Origin: an uncultured Ruficoccus sp.
Lineage (GTDB): Bacteria > Verrucomicrobiota > Verrucomicrobiia > Opitutales > Cerasicoccaceae
Direction: 5' to 3'
Assembly: GCA_965140785.1 (NCBI GenBank)
Contig: OZ223521.1
Span: 76,718 to 140,717 of the forward strand
Length of the DNA: 64,000 bases
The notes below the pieces were generated by a model, which was not told the origin of the DNA, searched no databases, and saw only the letters and a program-made list of their open reading frames with translations. How positions within the stretch are numbered: position 1 is the stretch's first letter; each line of letters begins with the position of its first letter. This document shows, piece by piece, positions 6,650 through 17,307 of the stretch. The translations under genes and the position numbers were made by a program.

Positions 6650-8510
6650 CTATACGTCTCGATGAGGCTTATCCGAGTAGTTAAGGCATAACGGGGGAAG
6701 GGTGGGGGAGCCGACAGCCGATGTCTCCGGTTGCGCGCCAGCGGTATCAGGAGAACTGGATTCCAGAATCGCCCTAACGCGTGTCCGCGCCCGACGCCCG
6801 CCAAGGTGTAATAGCACGCCCACGCACCCGATGAATGTTGCGACCCCCAGCACACAAAGCCGGCCGGTCACGTCGTTGGGCACAAGCAGTATCAGCAGAA
6901 CGAATGCCCCCACGCAGAGAACGGCCTTGGAGAGCACGAAATACTGCTCGTAGTCGATCGTTGAGGAACCCACCTCTTTCTCGTAATCCACAGGCGTACT
7001 CATCATCTTGAAAAAACGGGCCACCTCCTCGCGCTCGGCCGACGAGCTGAAAACATGCAGGAGTCGGCAAACGGCCGTTGTTGCCAGGCCAAAGACCATG
7101 ATCCAGAGGGTGCGCTTCTGTATCGTCCAGTCCGTGCCGTTCACCCGCGTATCGATGAACGACCAGATCGAGGGAATCATGCAGGCTGCGAAAATCGGGA
7201 AGTAGGACCACTTCGGCAGCTTTTTCAGCCACAGTCCCATGAGCATCGGAAACCCCATGGGTACACCGATGACCGACCCGATGATGAGGTAGGTATCAAA
7301 CAGGGCGACCGTGCCCTGCCGCGCAATCAAGACAGCATACGTGATGATGACACCGCCCAGGATAACCGTGGCCACATGACAGATGCGGATTTCGGTCCTG
7401 GGGGAAAGGTCATCGTGGTAACCCAAGGCCCCCCGCATGCGCGGGATGATGTTCCGCACAATGTTTCCGACGACACCGTTCAGCCCGGAATCCATACTGC
7501 TCATAGTGGCGGCGAACATCGCAGCGATCAGCATGCCCAGCATTCCGTTGGGCAAAAGCCGCATCGCGATATAGGCGTACGCGCTCTCGGCGGGCTTGTT
7601 TATGGCGCTGGACATGATCTCACCTTCAAAAAGGAAGCGAGCCACCATGGGTGGAACGAACCAGACGGCGCTGCCCAGCGCCATCAGTAAAAAGGCCCAC
7701 CACGACGCCCGCGAGGCTTCCCGCCCATCGCGCGTGGAAATATAGCGCCCGGTTGAACTCAGGCTGACCTGCCCGTACAACTGCATAAAAAACACAATCG
7801 CCGCCCACTGGTACGTGAACCGATCCCCCTGGAAATCTGCCTGCGTCGTTAAAAAAACGAAAATCCTGGGCAAAGTGCGGATCACTGAAATAATTGAAAA
7901 ATGGTCCCAGCCCGCCGATGGCCCGTAACGACAGCACAAAGACCAGTAGCGTGATGGAAAACATGACCAGCGCCTGGACAAAATCCGCGGCCATGACCGC
8001 CCACTTACCTCCCGTCGTCGAATAGAAAATAACGATCACGCCGATCGTCACCAACACCGGCAACAACGGCAAGCCCAGCACCGTGCTGGCAAAGAGCGAA
8101 AGCGCGTAGAGCTGGATCGCGGCGCCGACCGGCCCGAGGAAAACCTCGGTGAAAGCGGCGAATTGCTCGACGGGTACCCCGTAACGCACCCGGACTACGT
8201 CCGCGGTTGTATAGGCCCGGGTCTGCCTCAGCCACCGCCCCAGAAAGAGCCCGCCAACCACGTACCCCAGGCAATTGGCGATGTAGATTACCAAGAGGCT
8301 AGGGCCAGCCTCAAAGGCGGCGGAAGCGTTCCCAGTGAAGGTGAAGGCACTGATACCGCTCATCAGCATACTGGTTCCGACCATCCACCAAGTTCCTTGC
8401 GCCCCGCCCCGAACAAAATCACTCAGGTTTTTGTTGAACCGTGAAAATACCACCCCGAGCATCAACAGGATGCCCAGATAGATCGCCAGCGTTATATACT
8501 CAATTTTCAT
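6650..8510 (-). pseudogene. Sodium:solute symporter family protein split by a single-base frameshift
   Basis: ORF 7626-8510 carries the SSS N-half (SAFTFTG, TTGGKWAV..D.VQ) and ORF 6650-7981 the C-half (GMLGMLIAAMFAATMSSMDSGLN). Deleting one base in the G5 run (7825-7829) or T7 run (7851-7857) fuses them. A sequencing error is not excluded. Confidence 0.8.
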
Positions 8511-10117: not shown

Positions 10118-10966
10118 ATGAACAACACTATCACTAAAATCTCGTTTCTAGCTTTCTTGGGAATGACCGCATCCATGAGCCATGCGGCTATTCTGTTTTC
10201 AGAAGACTTCAACGAATACACCGCCGGGGAGCCCATTCCGACGGGGACCGATCAGACTTGGACCATTCGCACCGAGAATACAACTTTTGAAGCAATTGAT
10301 GACACGAGCCATATTTTTTCCCCCTCCGGCAATCAATATGGCCAACTGGACTTTGATGCCGCCTCAGGCGCCGCAGATCCGTTGGCGTCCACCAACTCGT
10401 CGGCCTTCAGCGAAGGTAGCATGACCGGGAAGCTCAGCATTTCATTCTGCACCCCCGAGGCACAGAGTACCTCCGGCTATGGGTTCCTCCTGCGCATCGG
10501 CAACGCCGCCGGTAATTCTGGGACCGCCTTTGCGATGTACATTTTGAAAAACGGCCAATTGCGCCCGAGTACCACCGATGGAGGCATGGGGTATTCCTTT
10601 GCTACCTATTCGCTCGGTGTCGCCAATCAGCTCGAGATTGTCTTCAACAACTCAAATGACTCTGTCAGTTATGAAGGAGGTACTGTCGCCTCAAGGACCA
10701 TGGATGTTTATCTTAACGGATCACTGGTCGCGGACGACATAACGAGCGGAACTGGCGGTCTCGCCCTGGAATCCAATATCACGAACATCAACTTCAGCGC
10801 CAAAACCTATGCGGAGGCATTCACTGGCACTATGTATCTGAACAAAGTCGAGCTTAGCACGATTCCCGAATCCAGCGCCAGTTCCAATGCGATTGCCATC
10901 GCCTTGATCGCCGCACTGAGCCTGTTTATTCGTCACCGTTACCATTCCCGTCGGTCGTCGTTATAG
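10118..10966 (+). CDS. PEP-CTERM sorting-domain surface protein
   Basis: Signal peptide (..ASMSHA), Ser/Thr/Gly-rich body, C-terminal IPES + hydrophobic helix + basic tail RHRYHSRR. Confidence 0.85.
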   Translation: MNNTITKISFLAFLGMTASMSHAAILFSEDFNEYTAGEPIPTGTDQTWTIRTENTTFEAIDDTSHIFSPSGNQYGQLDFDAASGAADPLASTNSSAFSEGSMTGKLSISFCTPEAQSTSGYGFLLRIGNAAGNSGTAFAMYILKNGQLRPSTTDGGMGYSFATYSLGVANQLEIVFNNSNDSVSYEGGTVASRTMDVYLNGSLVADDITSGTGGLALESNITNINFSAKTYAEAFTGTMYLNKVELSTIPESSASSNAIAIALIAALSLFIRHRYHSRRSSL

Positions 10967-11138: not shown

Positions 11139-11258
11139 CTTGGCCTTCCGGGCGCGTTGTCTGTCCGTGAACTTCAATCGCTTGTTGCTATGCAACTCTT
11201 TCAAAACGCGTACCTCTTCTTGGAGAGACTCGATTACCTGCTGCTGTTGGCGGTTCAT
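11139..11258 (-). mobile_element. Transposase N-terminal relic (integrase-core/DDE-type element common in PVC bacteria)
   Basis: MNRQQQQVIESLQEEVRVLKELHSNKRLKFTDRQRARKAK resembles the NRxQQxVIEYLxEENRVLxE..xRLRFTDxQRxRLAxKAK N-terminus of these transposases. It is truncated with no catalytic domain. Confidence 0.65.
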
Positions 11259-11397
11259 AGGTCAGCGCTTCGCAGCTTCCTCCCATCCGTCACCATGCAC
11301 AATAGAAGCTGAAACTGAGGCTAAGCCACGAAAATGCTGTCCGTCTGTAAGTCTCATTCAATGAACAACTATTCCTAAACAATTAACGGGTCACGAA

Positions 11398-12081
11398 TTA
11401 GCTATTCGCAGTCCACACGGGCATATTCAAATCAGTATACTTGGCATTCCCGATCGTATGATACATTAAGCGTTCGAGCTTCTCGATTCCCGGGTGGCAA
11501 GACCACTGCTCCAAATAGCGCTCATGCTCGGCATTATCATTAATACCCGGAATAATGGGGCAGCGCAATCGGATGTTCGCGCCCCTATCGAGTAAGAATT
11601 GGAGGTTTGTTTTAATCAGGCTACCGTCTACGCCGGTCCATTTTTTATGGGCTTCCGCCTGGCAAAGTTTGAGATCGAAATGGAATAAATCAACCAGGGG
11701 TAGCAGATCCATCAAGCGTTCAGTCGGGGTATGACCACAAGTATCCAGGCATGTGTGGATGCCTTCGGACTTTGCCCGGCCCAGAAGCGCCCGGCAGAAC
11801 GCATACTGGAGGGTGGGTTCACCGCCGGAAAGCGTCACTCCGCCCTGTGACGCCTCATAAAAATGACGATCGGCCAGGACGAGCTCCATGACCTCATCTA
11901 CGCTCATATAGCGCCCGTAGCACTTTCCTGAAACACCAACTTGCGGCTTTTTCTCTTGCGATTCGGGATTGTGGCACCAGGCACAGCGCAGGGGGCAGCC
12001 TTTGAGAAAAACCGTCGTGCGCAAGCCGGGACCGTCGTGCAACGAGGCTCGCTGAATATCAAAAACGATTCCCGATTCCAT
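11398..12081 (-). CDS. Glycyl-radical enzyme activating enzyme (radical SAM)
   Basis: HDGPGLRTTVFLKGCPLRCAWCHNPES (CxxxCxxC), SGGEP, DTCG and DLK motifs; no ferredoxin insertion; starts 3 bp after the GRE stop. Confidence 0.95.
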   Translation of the reverse strand: MESGIVFDIQRASLHDGPGLRTTVFLKGCPLRCAWCHNPESQEKKPQVGVSGKCYGRYMSVDEVMELVLADRHFYEASQGGVTLSGGEPTLQYAFCRALLGRAKSEGIHTCLDTCGHTPTERLMDLLPLVDLFHFDLKLCQAEAHKKWTGVDGSLIKTNLQFLLDRGANIRLRCPIIPGINDNAEHERYLEQWSCHPGIEKLERLMYHTIGNAKYTDLNMPVWTANS

Positions 12082-12084
12082 GGT

Positions 12085-14271
12085 CTAGTGCAGGGTTCTT
12101 TCGAGGATTTCGAGTTGCGCCTCCCGGGGAAGCTCGACGAAGCGTATGCTGAACCCCCCGACACGCACCATGAGGTGCCCCCAGCGCTCAGGTTCCCGCA
12201 TGGCGGCCTCCAAATCCTCACGTGATACGACGGTGATCATCGCCTGTGCTCCGCCCTGATCGAAGTAAGCCTGCAGGAGGGCGCTCATTTTGGGAAACAT
12301 CTCAACGCTAAACCACGCCCGGCTGAACTTCATATTCTGCACCGCCCCGGCATGAATCCCGGGATCTAGCTTCACCAGGGAGTTAAGAAAGGCGGTTACA
12401 CCATTCGTATCAGCCCCCGGTGACGGATTGTTGGCATTCGCCATTGGTTGCCCAAAGCGGCGTCCATCCACACTGGCTGACGTTAACTTGCCCAGCACCG
12501 TATTCGCCCAGTTATTGATGATAACCACCAGATAGCTATCCAGCCCGACAGCCTGCGATTGTTCAGCAGTCACCTGGCAGATGTGCTCGTGTACCCGACA
12601 CGCCATGGCATCGACCATGGCCTCGTCATTGCCGTACTTACTCACTTTTCGGCACGCGAGATGCACAGGCTCAAAGCCACTGAAATCGCTGTCGATAGCC
12701 TCAATCAAGTCGTGCAACGTGAATTGCTTTTGCCGGAACACCAGTTCGCGGATCACGTGCAGACTGTCCGCGGTATTCGTGTTTCCGTAGGTTTCCAACG
12801 TGCCGCCAAGATACCTGCTTCCACCTCCAAAAGCCCCCTTGTTCCTGTCCACACAGTCAGCGGTCAGCGCGCTGATGAAGGCAAATGGCGCCTCTTGAGA
12901 CGCGACGTCGTATTCGATTTTCTGCTGTCGTGCCAATGCCTCGACATAGTACCGAACCACCTTATCGTAAGCGCTCCATAAATCGTCAAAACTGCGCATG
13001 TGCTCGACCTTGGCAGCAGTCGGCACGACCACTTCCCCGGTAACAGCGTCCACGCCATCGTGCAGGGTAACTTCAAGCGCCTTCAGGAGATTAATCACCC
13101 CGTTCGGCGAGCCCACGCTGAAAGAGCCGAGCACATACTCTCCGCAGCCAAACGGAGTGTAATCAACAGCTACCTGCTCGCTGACGCCAAAAGCGCGGGC
13201 AACGGCCGGGATATTGACATCGTCATTGTACAGCATGGGAAAGGTGCACCCCTCCCCGATAGCCTGCATGGCTCGTTCCCAGAGTTCAGGATTCTGCCCA
13301 CGATAGCAGCGCAGGGATAGTTGCGGCTGGTTTTTGCGCACACGGCGCGTGGCCTCTATTGCCAGTAAAGCAAATCTGTCAGCTGAGGGCTCCTGCGGAC
13401 GTCCTTTGCCGCCGACAATGAGACGATTATCGTACTGGTTGTCGTAAGCATTCATCAGATGCCAAAGCGAGCACAGCAGTTCCAGCGCCTCTGCCTCATC
13501 CAGCAGCCCGGACTCCAGATCTGCGACCAGAAAAGGGCCCAGGGCGACATCTAGCCGACCATAGTTCCACGTGCCGGCATGCAAGGCGTACAGCCAGAAC
13601 AGTTGTATCGCTTCCCGAAAACACCGGGGCGCCTGATCGCCGATGCCTAAAAGCGTTTGCCTCATGCCCTCGTCCGAACAGTCGCGCACGTAGCGATCTA
13701 TCGTTGCCAACATAAGCGGCACGACATGTCTGAACGACGTAGCCTCAAGAGCGTCTGCCAGCCCACCCAGTCCCAACTGAAGCAGTCTGGAATAGTCGAG
13801 AGTCGTACCTGCCATGCGGTAAAGCGGAAAGGCCACGCCACTGTCCTGCTGCCAGGCATCCGACGGCAGGCGTTGAGCTACCCACTGGGGATATCCGGAC
13901 CGTGTTTTTTCGACGGTGGTTCGCCCCCGCCAGAAATTAATCAAATCCCGGCAGGCCCGCGCCTGTGACGGATAAGCATCCGCGCCCGCCTCCAGGGCAT
14001 CGAAACAGCAATAATACCCCACACTGACCGGCTCGGGGCTAAAACCAACCAAGGGATAGCGCACACGTCCGGCAAACATATCCCCTTTCTCCGGGGAGAG
14101 GAATTGCCCGGGGAACTGGACAGCCAGCACGGCGGCCTCGCGCTCCTGGCTGTCCGCATCCTCATACGCTTGATAGGCTCCCGTAAGCGCCTGCGACATT
14201 TCGACAGCCTGAGAGAAGCGCTCGGGCGTCGAGAGCCAATAGTCCTGACTTAACTCACTGAGCGTTTTCAT
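12085..14271 (-). CDS. Glycyl radical enzyme (PFL superfamily), function unknown
   Basis: C-terminal Gly loop LMVRVGGFS, single-Cys loop PFGCGEY, KYGND and DGR motifs. It lacks the PFL Cys-Cys pair. Confidence 0.93.
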   Translation of the reverse strand: MKTLSELSQDYWLSTPERFSQAVEMSQALTGAYQAYEDADSQEREAAVLAVQFPGQFLSPEKGDMFAGRVRYPLVGFSPEPVSVGYYCCFDALEAGADAYPSQARACRDLINFWRGRTTVEKTRSGYPQWVAQRLPSDAWQQDSGVAFPLYRMAGTTLDYSRLLQLGLGGLADALEATSFRHVVPLMLATIDRYVRDCSDEGMRQTLLGIGDQAPRCFREAIQLFWLYALHAGTWNYGRLDVALGPFLVADLESGLLDEAEALELLCSLWHLMNAYDNQYDNRLIVGGKGRPQEPSADRFALLAIEATRRVRKNQPQLSLRCYRGQNPELWERAMQAIGEGCTFPMLYNDDVNIPAVARAFGVSEQVAVDYTPFGCGEYVLGSFSVGSPNGVINLLKALEVTLHDGVDAVTGEVVVPTAAKVEHMRSFDDLWSAYDKVVRYYVEALARQQKIEYDVASQEAPFAFISALTADCVDRNKGAFGGGSRYLGGTLETYGNTNTADSLHVIRELVFRQKQFTLHDLIEAIDSDFSGFEPVHLACRKVSKYGNDEAMVDAMACRVHEHICQVTAEQSQAVGLDSYLVVIINNWANTVLGKLTSASVDGRRFGQPMANANNPSPGADTNGVTAFLNSLVKLDPGIHAGAVQNMKFSRAWFSVEMFPKMSALLQAYFDQGGAQAMITVVSREDLEAAMREPERWGHLMVRVGGFSIRFVELPREAQLEILERTLH

Positions 14272-14272
14272 A

Positions 14273-14383
14273 GATAAGCAAATTTGACTTCAAGGGGTCT
14301 TTAAATTGAACGTTGAAGGTCCAGGCGTCTGAGAGAGAAGTCGGCCCTGAACCCGATAATCAAAAAAATCCTGGCAGGTATGG
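14273..14383 (-). pseudogene. C-terminal relic of a sugar phosphate isomerase/epimerase
   Basis: Hand translation PYLPGFF*LSGSGPTSLSDAWTFNVQFKDPLKSNLLI resembles the PYxP...DAWxxNxxxxDxL tail of TIM-barrel isomerases; it ends right at the GRE start. Confidence 0.5.
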
Positions 14384-14422
14384 CTGCGAATCAAAGGTAC
14401 TTCGAATAACGTCAAGCATAGC

Positions 14423-14989
14423 TTAGGTGTTGGTTGTCTCGACGGTCTCGGTTATTTTTCTGTTAACGTAGTGAATGACAGGACACTCGGAAAATTCGAC
14501 TAGTGTATCTGAAACGTTTCCCACCGGAAATCTCGTGTAGTTTTTGATCGCTAGAGCGAGATTCAGGAATTCTCGAATGGTGTGCCCATGAGTTAAAGCG
14601 ACTATAGTCTGATCTTGTTCCAGGTTTTGAATTTTGTGTAAGAGCTTCATGCACCGACCACGGAATGAAGCTGTCGATTCGTCCAACGCCGGATCTTGTA
14701 CGCTATCAACATCAATATCCTGGTCTGAATCTAGGTTGAGGTGTCCTTCGGATAAAAGAGGTTCGATCTTAATCGGAATATCACAGCACGCTTTGAACGG
14801 CTGAAGTGTCTGTCTGGATCGCAAAAGAGGGCTACACCAGATTTCATCCAACGTGAGTCTAGATAAATACTGTTTTAGTGCGTGAGATTGGAGAATGCCT
14901 GAGGAGTTGAGTTGCTCGTCGGGAATGCACGATAGTTGTCCTGATTGATTCGCATTCGTTTCTGCGTGTCGAATGAGGTGAAGTTTCAT
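14423..14989 (-). CDS. Histidine phosphatase (phosphoglycerate mutase-like) family protein, low GC
   Basis: LIRHAET..N, SPLLRSRQT, L.E and THG motifs; one sampled 60-nt line is about 40% GC. Confidence 0.88.
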   Translation of the reverse strand: MKLHLIRHAETNANQSGQLSCIPDEQLNSSGILQSHALKQYLSRLTLDEIWCSPLLRSRQTLQPFKACCDIPIKIEPLLSEGHLNLDSDQDIDVDSVQDPALDESTASFRGRCMKLLHKIQNLEQDQTIVALTHGHTIREFLNLALAIKNYTRFPVGNVSDTLVEFSECPVIHYVNRKITETVETTNT

Positions 14990-15029
14990 TTCTTCTTTTA
15001 TCGAGCAGTGCTTAGGTCTCTGAGGCGAA

Positions 15030-15269
15030 CTAGACGTTTTTACGAAGTGTTTCTCTGTGATGCCGTGGAGACGCCCCCTCCGGGTTGATTGTTGCGATCA
15101 GTTTCAGCCCGAACGCCGCAACCATGCCGGAGAGACTTGCGGGTGAATTTTTCAGCGCCGGCTGGTAAATCTCGACCGTGTCAAAGCCGACGGCATACGT
15201 CCGCTCAAGAGATACCTCGAGCGAAGCATGCCACATTTCCCACTTGGACTTTGCGAAGAGGAGCTGCAT
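15030..15269 (-). pseudogene. Truncated N-terminus of a sugar phosphate isomerase/epimerase
   Basis: MQLLFAKSKWEMW...GFDTVEIY resembles the first strands of the TIM barrel. The ATG overlaps the PhyH stop (TGATG); the frame stops after 79 residues. Confidence 0.65.
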
Positions 15270-16087
15270 CAATGCGCGCGAAATCCGAGTTCTTTACGCC
15301 GTTTAATAATATGCGAGTAATCCACCGCCGGATCTGCCAAATCCTGGCCGAGTACATTTCGCCCGCGAGCCTGGTAGATCAGTTGCCTGTCCGCATACTC
15401 CGGGTTAAGCCGGACGGTGGCAGGAATAAACCGGAGGGTCCATCCGCAGCGGCGGATGTCGGAGGTATTGGCAGCGCTGCCGTGCTGCGTGCGCGCGTCA
15501 TGCAGGGAGCAATAATTCGGCTGGAGTTCACATGGCACAGCGAGCTCGTCCTTGCGCTGCGAGGGGATTATTTCGGTGGGAAAGACTGCCTTTGACGTGT
15601 CCACATCCTCGTAGTCGGAAAATCCCATTCGTCCGGTATTGTGCGAGCGGGGGATGACATACATACACCCGTTCACCTGAGTCGAAGGGTCGATCGCCAG
15701 CCACACGGTGGCTACCTCCATCGGCTCAAGGAGACGCCGCCAGTAGGCGCTGTCCTCGTGCCACGGGACACGTCGCCCGTCGCCCTTGGGCTTGCAGATA
15801 AAGTGGGTCGAAAAAAGCAGAATGTCCGGGCCCAGTAAAGGCTCAACCAGATCTACGACCTCTGGAGCCAACGCCCATTCGTTCAACTTGGGATCGCCGA
15901 AATGAGGCGTGTCCATCGCTTCGGGGCGCTCATCCGAGGGCCAGGCAGCAAGTTTTTTTTCGAAGTGATCGACCAGTGACGCAAACTTCTCGTCTGAGAA
16001 AACTTTGCACTGGGGAAGGGTATAACCTTCCTGTTTGAACTGCTGAACTTCTTCCGGGGTCAGTCGTGATCGATGCGTCGTTTCCAT
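15269..16087 (-). CDS. Phytanoyl-CoA dioxygenase (PhyH) family Fe(II)/2-oxoglutarate dioxygenase
   Basis: F..EGY, WHEDSAYW (HxD), WLAID, NGCMYVIP.SH and HGS..N.S..RR motifs. Confidence 0.93.
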   Translation of the reverse strand: METTHRSRLTPEEVQQFKQEGYTLPQCKVFSDEKFASLVDHFEKKLAAWPSDERPEAMDTPHFGDPKLNEWALAPEVVDLVEPLLGPDILLFSTHFICKPKGDGRRVPWHEDSAYWRRLLEPMEVATVWLAIDPSTQVNGCMYVIPRSHNTGRMGFSDYEDVDTSKAVFPTEIIPSQRKDELAVPCELQPNYCSLHDARTQHGSAANTSDIRRCGWTLRFIPATVRLNPEYADRQLIYQARGRNVLGQDLADPAVDYSHIIKRRKELGFRAH

Positions 16088-16160
16088 GCTTCATAGTGTA
16101 ACATAAATGGGGCTTGAAATCGTCATCCAAAAAAGCAAAATAATGCTCTATTGTGATCCC

Positions 16161-16985
16161 ATGAAAATACTCCGATGGAAAAATATCTGCGAAAATGATG
16201 AAAGTCTACATATCGCGACCATTGAAATGGGCAAAACTCGATCCACGGCCATGCACCGCCACGACTTCTATGAGTGCTTTCTGGTACTTGAAGGGCACGG
16301 GCAGCATGTCATGCCCTCCGGCACAGAAATGCTCCAGGCCAACCATCTGTACTTTATCCGTCCGGAGCATTGCCATGCCGTTACCGGACAGGCGGACCTC
16401 GTGTTTCTCAACATAGCGTTTGAAGCTTCCGTGTTTGAGAAGGCCGAAGCGCTGTCTGTTTTTTCAAGAGCCTGCTGGCCTCCCGGCCTACCAATAAAAA
16501 ATCTGAGATTGAGCCAGAACCAGTCCATGGCATTGCGCACCTGTATTGATGACATCGCTGGCCAGCCTGGCCGGCGTAATGCCGCCTGGCTCCTGCTCAG
16601 CTTGGCCCGTATTCTGGATGACCCCGTCTCACGTAAATATTCCAACAATGAAATCCCGGAGTGGATGGCGAATGGACTGAACCGCGCCATGGACGAGGAT
16701 GTCCTCAGGCAAGGGGTTGCCGGGCTTACCCTGGCAATGGGCCGGTCGCGTGAACATGTCACCCGCAGTTTTCAAAAATACCTGAAAATGACTCCCACCC
16801 AGTGGCTCAACATCGAGCGCATCAAACACGCCCGGCGGCTCCTGACGACGACACGGTTAAGTGTGATGGAAATTGCGCTCGAATGCGGATACGAGAGCCC
16901 GAGCCACTTCCACAAGTGCTTTAAGCAGCAAGCCGGGACGTCGCCCTTGAGGTATCGCTCCAAGCTCACCTGCGTGCAGGCATAG
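16161..16985 (+). CDS. AraC-family regulator (cupin + double HTH)
   Basis: MHRHDFYE cupin; EIALECGYESPSHFHKCFK..G.SP..YR. Divergent from the PhyH/GRE genes. Start placed at ATG 16161. Confidence 0.92.
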   Translation: MKILRWKNICENDESLHIATIEMGKTRSTAMHRHDFYECFLVLEGHGQHVMPSGTEMLQANHLYFIRPEHCHAVTGQADLVFLNIAFEASVFEKAEALSVFSRACWPPGLPIKNLRLSQNQSMALRTCIDDIAGQPGRRNAAWLLLSLARILDDPVSRKYSNNEIPEWMANGLNRAMDEDVLRQGVAGLTLAMGRSREHVTRSFQKYLKMTPTQWLNIERIKHARRLLTTTRLSVMEIALECGYESPSHFHKCFKQQAGTSPLRYRSKLTCVQA

Positions 16986-17024: not shown

Positions 17025-17147
17025 GTGAAACAGACCCTCCTGCTCCCCACCGCGCCGGACGATTCCTGGGCGTTTGCCCGACAGATCGGCGTCATTCACA
17101 CGGTGACGAAGACCGCTCCCATGTTGTCCGGTCTGCCCATGCCTTGA
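17025..17147 (+). pseudogene. Mannonate dehydratase (UxuA-like) N-terminal relic
   Basis: Hand translation MKQTLLLPTAPDDSWAFARQIGVIHTVTKTAPMLSGLPMP* resembles the UxuA-type W..ARQIGV start. TGA falls where the Trp of the PW motif is expected. Confidence 0.55.
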
Positions 17148-17307
17148 CACCCTCTACAACCTAACCCTAAATCGCATCATTAACCCGCTTAGACTAACTC
17201 TCAACGCGGGACAGTTTGCGTAGGCAGGTCACGGTGCGGTTCTGCTGACATCCATGCCACTTCTCCGACTTGACCCAAAAAACTGGCGAGTACTGGAAAG
17301 TCTCCAG

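What the first reader, a model, noticed from the sequence alone, without database searches (positions are those of the whole stretch)
11398..16985. O2-dependent Fe/2OG dioxygenase and O2-labile glycyl radical enzyme in one AraC-divergent gene run: candidate new sugar catabolic pathway
Seen: the co-oriented run PhyH dioxygenase - (broken TIM-barrel isomerase) - GRE - activase, with a TGATG overlap and a 3-bp gap, divergent from an AraC gene and beside GH2/GH30 genes and a uxuA-like relic. Established: PhyH-family enzymes consume O2, activated GREs are cleaved by O2, and oxygenase/GRE pairs can serve the same substrate class (CntA/CutC for trimethylamine release, TauD/IslA for sulfonates). Inference: this may be an oxic/anoxic dual route for one substrate, plausibly a modified sugar released by the neighbouring glycosidases (for example O-demethylation versus radical 1,2-elimination). 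The substrate is not identifiable from sequence.
Basis: partly seen in the sequence, partly recalled or inferred. Interest (0 to 1): 0.8.

Follow-up and report, generated by a model that had tools for sequence, protein, structure and literature searches.

The report
One switch, two oxygen-opposite sugar enzymes
An oxygen-needing iron enzyme and an oxygen-destroyed radical enzyme of unknown function sit in one gene run behind a conserved DNA motif that likely binds a sugar-sensing activator, and in related bacteria either enzyme can occupy that slot alone, so they likely offer air and no-air routes to strip the same chemical group, predicted to be a methyl ether, from a modified sugar.

Summary
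The run is real and conserved. PhyH, GRE and activase are intact. The GRE is a CXE-type enzyme 19-25% identical to solved GREs and below every named-enzyme cutoff. In 300 class genomes, 6 of 8 GRE carriers also have the PhyH orthologue (0.7 expected). A PhyH lies nearby in 24 of 100 GRE loci, from two distant clades; most GRE loci lack one. One AraC clade and one 21-bp direct-repeat motif precede PhyH alone, GRE alone or both. GRE-only genomes lack heme-copper oxidase (0 of 4); PhyH-only (5 of 5) and dual carriers (7 of 7) have it. This fits interchangeable oxic and anoxic routes. The substrate is unproven. An O-methylated mannose-type sugar is the best guess: MtaA-like methyltransferases fill the same regulon slot, mannosidases recur, and the PhyH family includes ribose O-demethylases. 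The scan noted this module before in another genome (e1-366394).

The parts
16161..16985 (+). AraC/RhaR-like regulator with an HxHD-E cupin ligand domain; probable start 16161 (the longest ORF starts at 16107)
   Evidence: PF02311+PF12833; N-domain matches RhaR 5u9e, E 6.5e-4; member of a 49-row clade, SH-aLRT 99
16118..16158 (-). Conserved 21-bp-period direct-repeat motif (consensus RTCA-N7-RYAA-N6-GTCA-N7-RCAAGA; second half degenerate here), predicted AraC operator overlapping the -35 region
   Evidence: second-best site in the genome, 24.9 bits
16095..16100 (-). Predicted -10 box (TACACT), 18 nt after the motif and 7 nt before the PhyH ATG, suggesting a leaderless transcript
   Evidence: sequence; same spacing in many relatives; inferred
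15269..16087 (-). PhyH-family Fe(II)/2-oxoglutarate dioxygenase, 272 aa; H110-D112-H202 and R213 intact
   Evidence: PF05721; invariant columns in 61 homologs; no deviation at 97 conserved columns; fold 16-23% identical to solved relatives
15015..15269 (-). 5' stub of a xylose-isomerase-like TIM-barrel gene (aa 1-85, with an in-frame stop at 15030-15032)
   Evidence: tblastn with the full Cerasicoccus proteins; PF01261 for the intact orthologue
14423..14989 (-). Inserted low-GC histidine-phosphatase gene (188 aa) that replaced the middle of the isomerase; probably a passenger
   Evidence: PF00300 E 5.5e-29; GC dip; no homolog among the ORFs of 95 other GRE loci; nearest relative 70%
14264..14410 (-). 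3' relic of the isomerase gene (aa 229-273, with a stop), overlapping the GRE start as in Cerasicoccus
12085..14271 (-). Glycyl radical enzyme of an uncharacterised clade, 728 aa; C376-G-E378 Cys loop and R703-V-G-G706-F Gly loop; invariant R152, R283, E493, N586, N587
   Evidence: model pLDDT 92; TM 0.79-0.85 but 19-25% identity to solved GREs; differs at 5 of 221 conserved columns
11398..12081 (-). Radical-SAM activating enzyme, 227 aa, C29-C33-C36, short form without ferredoxin insert
   Evidence: TIGR02494 247.9 bits, cutoff 174.35; sequence

Best explanation
A conserved upstream motif, predicted to bind the neighbouring AraC activator, precedes an intact PhyH dioxygenase and an intact glycyl radical enzyme with its activase, and the two enzymes likely are air and no-air alternatives that would strip the same group, most likely an O-methyl ether, from a mannose-type sugar. 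Shown: the genes, their catalytic motifs, the recurring pairing, one regulator clade and one motif in front of PhyH alone, GRE alone or both, and sorting by respiratory oxidase content. Inferred: (1) the AraC binds the sugar in its RhaR-like cupin and activates one leaderless transcript running from PhyH through the stub and phosphatase to GRE and activase; (2) with O2, PhyH (H110/D112/H202) hydroxylates the O-CH3 group, which collapses to formaldehyde and the free sugar, with 2-oxoglutarate going to succinate; (3) without O2, the activase installs a radical on G706, C376 abstracts H from the carbinol next to the methoxy carbon, E378 deprotonates it, and methanol is eliminated to leave a deoxy-keto sugar; (4) in some relatives an MtaA/URO-D-like methyltransferase would be a third, corrinoid-dependent route. 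Odds: about 0.65 that both enzymes act on one substrate; about 0.33 that it is an O-methyl mannose-type sugar.
For: Co-occurrence in 300 class genomes: GRE 8, PhyH orthologue 25, both 6 (expected about 0.7); 4 of the 6 in one locus, 1 split at contig ends. PhyH lies within 2 kb in 16 of 100 GRE loci and a second, distant PhyH clade within 8.5 kb in 8 more. The first pairing is scattered over several GRE lineages and includes Persicobacter psychrovividus. AraCs of PhyH-only, GRE-only and dual loci form one clade; sister regulators drive PhyH+GRE or GRE alone (L046/L095, L096/L097). A motif trained on 21 AraC|GRE spacers beats all 60 shuffles in 26 of 32 AraC|PhyH spacers, and 14 of 21 the other way. 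Sites outside the training set precede the second PhyH clade (L069, L090) and the GRE of L096. Heme-copper oxidase: 0 of 4 GRE-only, 5 of 5 PhyH-only, 6 of 6 dual genomes plus the host; the host also has bd oxidase and anaerobic ribonucleotide reductase. For methyl: a URO-D/MtaA-like gene directly follows PhyH in 5 of the 20 loci, from three subfamilies only 24-32% alike; one is the first gene behind the motif in G142; a 36-40% relative sits with a PhyH in a full corrinoid methyltransferase cluster with a lyxose-isomerase-family gene (L135); PF05721 includes ribose O-demethylases (PMC12709175). For mannose: GH38, GH92 and GH2 genes recur, and the motif precedes GH38 in 3 genomes including the host.
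Against: No substrate, activity or transcript was shown. 44 of 67 GRE loci with at least 1.5 kb upstream have no PhyH nearby. In 251 genomes of another phylum the PhyH orthologue (5) and GRE (4) never overlapped, though the 3 GRE loci fetched there carry the second PhyH clade. Among 20 close relatives searched with both queries there was no overlap. The motif is a family signature: it also precedes Gfo/Idh/MocA genes in 4 places, and the GH38- and Gfo-driving AraCs form their own subclade, so their ligand may differ. The oxidase pattern would hold for any O2-needing and O2-labile pair, and G184 lacks the oxidase yet has 4 other PhyH-family genes. URO-D-like genes number 5-20 per genome in those hosts, the hosts are kin, and 0 of 8 further PhyH loci (L127-L134) have one next to PhyH; only L135 of the fetched loci has a dedicated corrinoid protein. 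The PhyH is only about 20% identical to PHYHD1. GRE pocket residues vary between subclades (W235 to R, L, I, F or M), and neighbours include nucleoside hydrolases, ribokinase, NanE, NagA/NagB and a SolA-like oxidase, so substrates may differ. The GRE has Gly at the position of the glycerol-dehydratase acid His164, so the acid that would release methanol is not identified.
Confidence: 0.33

Rival explanations
1. Same dual-route logic, but the group removed is not a methyl ether: an amine or N-glycoside (amino sugar, Amadori or opine type), a sulfonate, phosphonate or other anion, or an anhydro ring oxygen. PhyH would hydroxylate the carbon bearing it; the GRE would eliminate it or open the ring.
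For: All regulon and co-occurrence evidence fits equally. The GRE keeps two invariant Arg and an extra Glu (R152, R283, E493); C-S lyases anchor sulfonate with two Arg (PMC13450708). Neighbours include ROK+NanE, NagA/NagB and an N-methyltryptophan-oxidase-family gene.
Against: It does not explain the repeated recruitment of MtaA-like genes. No sulfite, phosphonate or amine-handling gene recurs among the clustered neighbours. YbiW/PflD-type context (PTS, transaldolase; recalled) was not seen among the annotated clusters.
Confidence: 0.27
2. One inducer, different jobs: the AraC switches on a glycan-breakdown regulon in which PhyH and GRE act on different monomers or at different steps, and they share an operon only because they share a signal.
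For: The motif also precedes glycosidases and Gfo/Idh/MocA genes. Either enzyme occurs alone in many genomes. The oxidase pattern follows from O2 chemistry alone.
Against: Sister regulators swap PhyH and GRE in the first-gene slot. A second, distant PhyH clade joined the GRE regulon with its own motif site, which is more easily explained by a shared need.
Confidence: 0.22
3. The substrate is 2-O-methylribose or a 2'-O-methyl nucleoside from RNA turnover: PhyH would demethylate the nucleoside in air, and a nucleoside hydrolase, kinase and the GRE would handle it without air.
For: PF05721 members do this reaction (PMC12709175). Nucleoside-hydrolase-like genes lie near 5 and PfkB kinases near 8 of 96 GRE loci.
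Against: Those neighbours belong to distant GRE subclades, not to the window's clade. The window PhyH is no closer to PHYHD1 than to ThoJ, SyrB2 or EvdO2.
Confidence: 0.08
4. In this genome the operon is decaying or uncoupled (the insertion cut the GRE off from the promoter), or PhyH merely removes O2 to protect the GRE.
For: The isomerase is destroyed and a foreign gene sits between PhyH and GRE. No second motif site precedes the GRE here. None of 4 same-genus genomes has either gene.
Against: GRE, activase and PhyH keep their conserved residues. No terminator-like site lies between PhyH and the GRE start on the minus strand (the scan's hits are at chance level). PhyH stands alone behind the same regulator in most of its carriers, where it has no GRE to protect.
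Confidence: 0.1

Closest known systems
GRE 1,2-eliminases and isomerases: glycerol dehydratase (1R8W), propanediol dehydratase (5I2G), HypD (6VXC), CutC, IslA/IseG/HpsG, YbiW (8ID7), PflD (8ID0), HplG
   Same: Same fold (TM 0.79-0.85), CXE Cys loop, C-terminal Gly loop and dedicated radical-SAM activase.
   Different: 19-25% identity; far below every equivalog cutoff; Gly at the His164 position and different strand residues; the 2026 review PMC13450708 lists no enzyme that removes a methyl ether.
PhyH-family O-demethylases FJS and PHYHD1 (PMC12709175)
   Same: Same Pfam family and HxD..H triad; they remove an O-methyl group from a ribose as formaldehyde.
   Different: About 20% identity to PHYHD1; FJS itself was not compared; no GRE link in the sections read.
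Oxygenase/GRE functional pairs CntA/CutC and TauD/IslA (pairing recalled; CutC and IslA chemistry)
   Same: An oxygenase and a radical lyase break the same kind of bond with and without O2.
   Different: As I recall, those pairs lie in separate loci, mostly in different organisms. Here both follow one promoter motif, and the pairing arose with two PhyH clades.
RhaR/RhaS/ChbR-type AraC activators
   Same: Cupin ligand domain (match to RhaR 5u9e); tandem sites reaching the -35 region (AraC-type layout recalled).
   Different: Below the ChbR and RhaS/R cutoffs; own 21-bp-period motif; ligand unknown.
UroD-superfamily corrinoid methyltransferases (MtaA/CmuA; mlp clusters, PMC10418091)
   Same: The regulon's URO-D-like genes score best to TIGR01463 and MtaA 4AY7.
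   Different: Below cutoff; mostly without an adjacent corrinoid protein; the characterised mlp clusters concern methyl-sulfur and methyl-selenium, not sugars.

Membership tests
PFL-like glycyl radical enzyme superfamily | C-terminal Gly loop with the radical glycine | tested here: met
   R703-V-G-G706-F aligns with RVAGY of glycerol dehydratase; PF01228
PFL-like glycyl radical enzyme superfamily | Catalytic Cys loop and 10-stranded barrel fold | tested here: met
   C376 invariant; Foldseek TM 0.79-0.85
PFL-like glycyl radical enzyme superfamily | Cognate radical-SAM activase with CX3CX2C | tested here: met
   Adjacent gene, TIGR02494 above cutoff
PFL-like glycyl radical enzyme superfamily | EPR-detectable glycyl radical, cleaved by O2 | not testable with these tools
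   needs protein
GRE 1,2-eliminases/isomerases | [quoted passage not shown] | tested here: met
   GCGE in all 80 full-length family rows; definition from PMC13450708
GRE 1,2-eliminases/isomerases | Elimination or ring-opening activity on a 1,2-substituted substrate | not testable with these tools
   substrate unknown
Named GREs with NCBIfam models (HypD, CutC, HpsG, HpfG, IAD, HPAD, PFL, PRK09983, PFL2-3 subfamily) | Score above the curated cutoff | tested here: not met
   best 273.9 against 678.2 (TIGR01774); others 71-232 against 994-1150
Glycerol/propanediol dehydratase | His164 as acid for the leaving hydroxyl | tested here: not met
   aligned residue is G155, invariant in the close family
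C-S lyases IslA/IseG/HpsG | Two Arg and a Gln anchoring sulfonate | tested here: inconclusive
YbiW/PflD anhydro-sugar-phosphate isomerases | Close sequence relationship and phosphate-binding pocket | tested here: not met
   23-24% identity, no closer than other GREs; pocket not mapped
PhyH-family Fe(II)/2OG dioxygenase | HxD..H iron triad, 2OG-binding Arg and double-stranded beta-helix fold | tested here: met
   H110, D112, H202, R213 invariant; fold search
SyrB2/CytC3 halogenases | Ala/Gly in place of the triad Asp (recalled) | tested here: not met
   D112 invariant; TIGR01762 62 against 226
PHYHD1/FJS 2'-O-methyl nucleoside demethylases | Demethylation of 2'-O-methyl nucleosides; clade membership | tested here: inconclusive
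   about 20% identity to PHYHD1, rank 7 in the fold search; FJS not compared; activity untested

The most novel reading that the evidence does not exclude
The GRE is the first glycyl radical methyl-ether lyase: it expels methanol from an O-methylated sugar, and one AraC regulon has recruited three unrelated demethylation chemistries for that sugar (Fe/2OG oxygenase from two separate clades, glycyl radical elimination, and a corrinoid-type methyltransferase), with facultative bacteria carrying the oxic and anoxic versions on one transcript.
Probability: 0.3. Interest if true: 0.88.

Novelty: new variant of a known kind. Interest (0 to 1): 0.7.

Why it matters
The GRE clade is large (at least 1755 clusters at E<=1e-50 among 7999 candidates scored, a count that includes other GREs), reaches Verrucomicrobiota, Bacteroidota including gut Parabacteroides, and other groups, and has no assigned reaction. 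Its pairing with an easily assayed aerobic oxygenase behind one motif gives a shortcut: find the PhyH substrate or the AraC inducer and the GRE substrate is nominated. If the group is a methyl ether, it would add a bond type to GRE chemistry and show how anaerobes unlock O-methylated sugars of algal, fungal and invertebrate glycans (occurrence recalled), releasing methanol.

Tried and rejected
uxuA relic: not found. Chance adjacency or a one-off insertion of PhyH: rejected by recurrence and low copy number. Obligate sequential pathway: rejected because each enzyme often occurs alone. Isomerase as core part: 3 of 96 GRE loci and one PhyH-only locus (L129). Histidine phosphatase as pathway member: no homolog in 95 other GRE loci; a shared longest-contig length of 2523 between P0143 and P0244 could not be checked. 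Window GH2/GH30 as co-regulated: no motif site; a 50% GH2 relative lies near the C. maritimus locus. Generic promoter/terminator scan gave chance-level counts. The Atlas search returned only unnamed PFL-like clusters. The careful AraC tree did not finish; the quick tree is used. GRE and ligand-domain trees are FastTree; 33 short-flank loci, partial proteins and 3 duplicates were left out of the GRE tree. Literature: ten searches; none returned a paper on this pairing or clade, and searches returned no paper at all. Most subscription papers are outside the library, the GRE network paper I tried was not held, and no supplements were read. No complex prediction was run.
Full report
Observation. 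On the minus strand lie a PhyH-family dioxygenase (16087-15269), an 80-codon isomerase stub, a histidine-phosphatase gene (14989-14423), a glycyl radical enzyme (GRE, 14271-12085) and its activase (12081-11398); an AraC gene runs the other way to 16985. The TGATG overlap and the 3-bp gap are as described. In Cerasicoccus maritimus and C. frondis the order is AraC | PhyH, a whole 279-aa TIM-barrel protein, GRE, activase. In the window residues 1-85 and 229-273 of that protein flank the low-GC phosphatase, so a foreign gene replaced its middle. No uxuA relic was found. The host belongs to the Cerasicoccus family and has a heme-copper oxidase, a bd oxidase and an anaerobic ribonucleotide reductase.

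The enzymes. The GRE has GCGE and RVGGF loops, differs from its family at 5 of 221 conserved columns, folds like other GREs (pLDDT 92; TM 0.79-0.85) at 19-25% identity and passes no named-enzyme cutoff. CXE marks eliminases and isomerases (PMC13450708; I read the abstract and sections 5.6, 5.7 and 7 and ran a term search). It has Gly where glycerol dehydratase has His164 and keeps invariant R152, R283, E493, N586 and N587. Position 235 varies by subclade. The PhyH keeps H110, D112, H202 and R213 and is 16-23% identical to solved relatives, none clearly nearest.

Is the pairing conserved? In 300 genomes of the class, 8 have the GRE, 25 the PhyH orthologue and 6 both, against about 0.7 expected; kin are not independent. 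Of 100 GRE loci held (two pairs are duplicates, many are short), 16 have the orthologous PhyH within 2 kb and 8 a second PhyH clade only 18-23% like the first; among 67 with at least 1.5 kb upstream, 23 have one and 44 have none. The first pairing is scattered over the GRE tree and includes a Bacteroidota plasmid. Twelve identical longest-contig lengths among the GRE and PhyH protein hits hint at further shared contigs; one of them is the C. maritimus contig and the rest are unverified. Against: no overlap in 251 genomes of another phylum, although all 3 GRE loci fetched there have the second clade; no overlap in 20 close relatives; neither gene in 4 same-genus genomes.

One regulator, one motif. 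AraCs beside PhyH alone, GRE alone or both form one clade of 49 rows (SH-aLRT 99, quick tree) that holds only 2 of the host's 31 other AraC-like genes tested; the Persicobacter, Parabacteroides and Bacillus regulators fall outside it. The spacers share a direct repeat with a 21-bp period, 18 nt before a -10-like box. Trained on 21 AraC|GRE spacers, it beats all 60 shuffles in 26 of 32 AraC|PhyH spacers; the reverse gives 14 of 21. The window's own site is degenerate (z 2.3 in that test) but ranks second in the genome; the first lies before a GH38 gene. Untrained sites precede the second PhyH clade in L069 and L090 and the GRE in L096, L097 and L099. A pattern search of 301 genomes gave 24 matches against 4 for the reversed control: 8 before PhyH (6 of them training loci), 1 before a decayed PhyH, 3 before GH38, 4 before Gfo/Idh/MocA genes, 1 before a URO-D/MtaA-like gene, 1 beside an AraC with unclear target, 6 unrelated. 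Part of the conservation may serve the overlapping AraC promoter. The GH38- and Gfo-driving regulators form a subclade and may sense another ligand.

Oxygen. Heme-copper oxidase was found in 0 of 4 GRE-only genomes, 5 of 5 PhyH-only genomes (5 of 19 tested) and 6 of 6 dual genomes besides the host. This fits alternatives for air and no air but does not prove a shared substrate.

Substrate. Three lines point to a methyl ether. URO-D/MtaA-like genes of three subfamilies directly follow PhyH in 5 of the 20 loci, against 5-20 such genes per genome, though in 0 of 8 further loci. One stands first behind the motif, and a relative sits with a more distant PhyH (34%) in a full corrinoid methyltransferase cluster (L135). 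The host's other PhyH also lies near a URO-D-like and a corrinoid gene. UroD-superfamily members include corrinoid methyltransferases (PMC10418091; abstract and passages). PF05721 enzymes demethylate 2'-O-methyl nucleosides (PMC12709175; abstract, two Results sections and passages). Mannose is suggested by GH38 (6 of 96 loci), GH2 (8) and GH92 (3) near GREs, GH38 near 3 PhyH loci and a D-mannonate oxidoreductase in Persicobacter. Other neighbours point elsewhere: nucleoside hydrolases and ribokinase, ROK with NanE in Parabacteroides, NagA/NagB, a SolA-like oxidase.

Mechanism and verdict. Most likely the AraC senses a modified sugar and turns on one transcript; in air PhyH oxidises the substituent off, and without air the GRE eliminates it by thiyl-radical chemistry. 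I commit to an O-methyl mannose-type sugar (0.33), with formaldehyde and methanol as predicted products; a shared substrate of any kind stands at about 0.65. The enzymes are members of known superfamilies but of no characterised subfamily. Oxygenase/GRE pairs are known as a concept (recalled); their union behind one motif was not found in ten literature searches of the held library. An earlier scan report (e1-366394) reached the same two-route reading on another genome; it is not independent support. What I add is the motif, the interchange of outputs, the second PhyH clade, the oxidase pattern and the methyltransferase link. Novelty: new variant of a known kind. Interest 0.7.

Noticed in passing
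window 6650-8510 (-): A sodium:solute symporter gene is split into two overlapping ORFs (N- and C-terminal halves of PF00474), as from a frameshift.
   Followed up: no
window 17132-17232: A roughly 100-bp element with 21 blastn hits elsewhere in the genome, mostly 89-95% identical: a MITE- or REP-like repeat.
   Followed up: partly
window 11212-11394: A second dispersed element, 12 partial hits at 77-87%, just downstream of the activase; likely an insertion-sequence remnant.
   Followed up: no
window 10118-10966 (+): Secreted 282-aa protein with a PEP-CTERM-like tail by eye; no Pfam or NCBIfam hit.
   Followed up: no
G000:C4:285588-290217 (L126): The host's second PhyH lies between two AraC genes, next to a URO-D-like gene and a corrinoid-binding protein; one AraC groups with the Persicobacter PhyH-GRE regulator.
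   Followed up: partly
G000:C4:86366-89470 (L125): Best motif site in the genome, between a paralogous AraC and a 1008-aa GH38 gene.
   Followed up: partly
G000:C39:135301-136245: A second uxuA copy is matched in two pieces, beside an intact copy on C43.
   Followed up: no
L135:3997-19833 (G695): Cluster of corrinoid protein, MetH-type reactivation domain, homocysteine S-methyltransferase, three URO-D-like genes, PfkB kinase, lyxose-isomerase-family gene, PhyH and glycosidases: a candidate methylated-sugar demethylation locus.
   Followed up: partly
L122:18134-23770 (Parabacteroides distasonis): A 38% relative of the GRE sits in a ROK kinase - NanE - GRE - activase - O-acetyltransferase run in a human gut commensal.
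   Followed up: partly
L134:9829-11807 (G690): PhyH orthologue followed by an N-methyl-L-tryptophan-oxidase-family gene above its cutoff.
   Followed up: no
L014-L018, L020, L021, L025: A GRE subclade with activase but without this AraC or PhyH, in several loci directly after an Era-like GTPase or beside an ACT-domain gene.
   Followed up: no
L146 (G451:C71): Motif and AraC in front of what looks like a decayed PhyH gene.
   Followed up: no
L136-L138, L069, L079, L090: A conserved cassette of GRE, activase, AraC, second PhyH clade, sugar ABC binding protein, nucleoside-hydrolase-like gene and, in most, GH92, lactonase-like and Gfo/Idh/MocA genes.
   Followed up: partly
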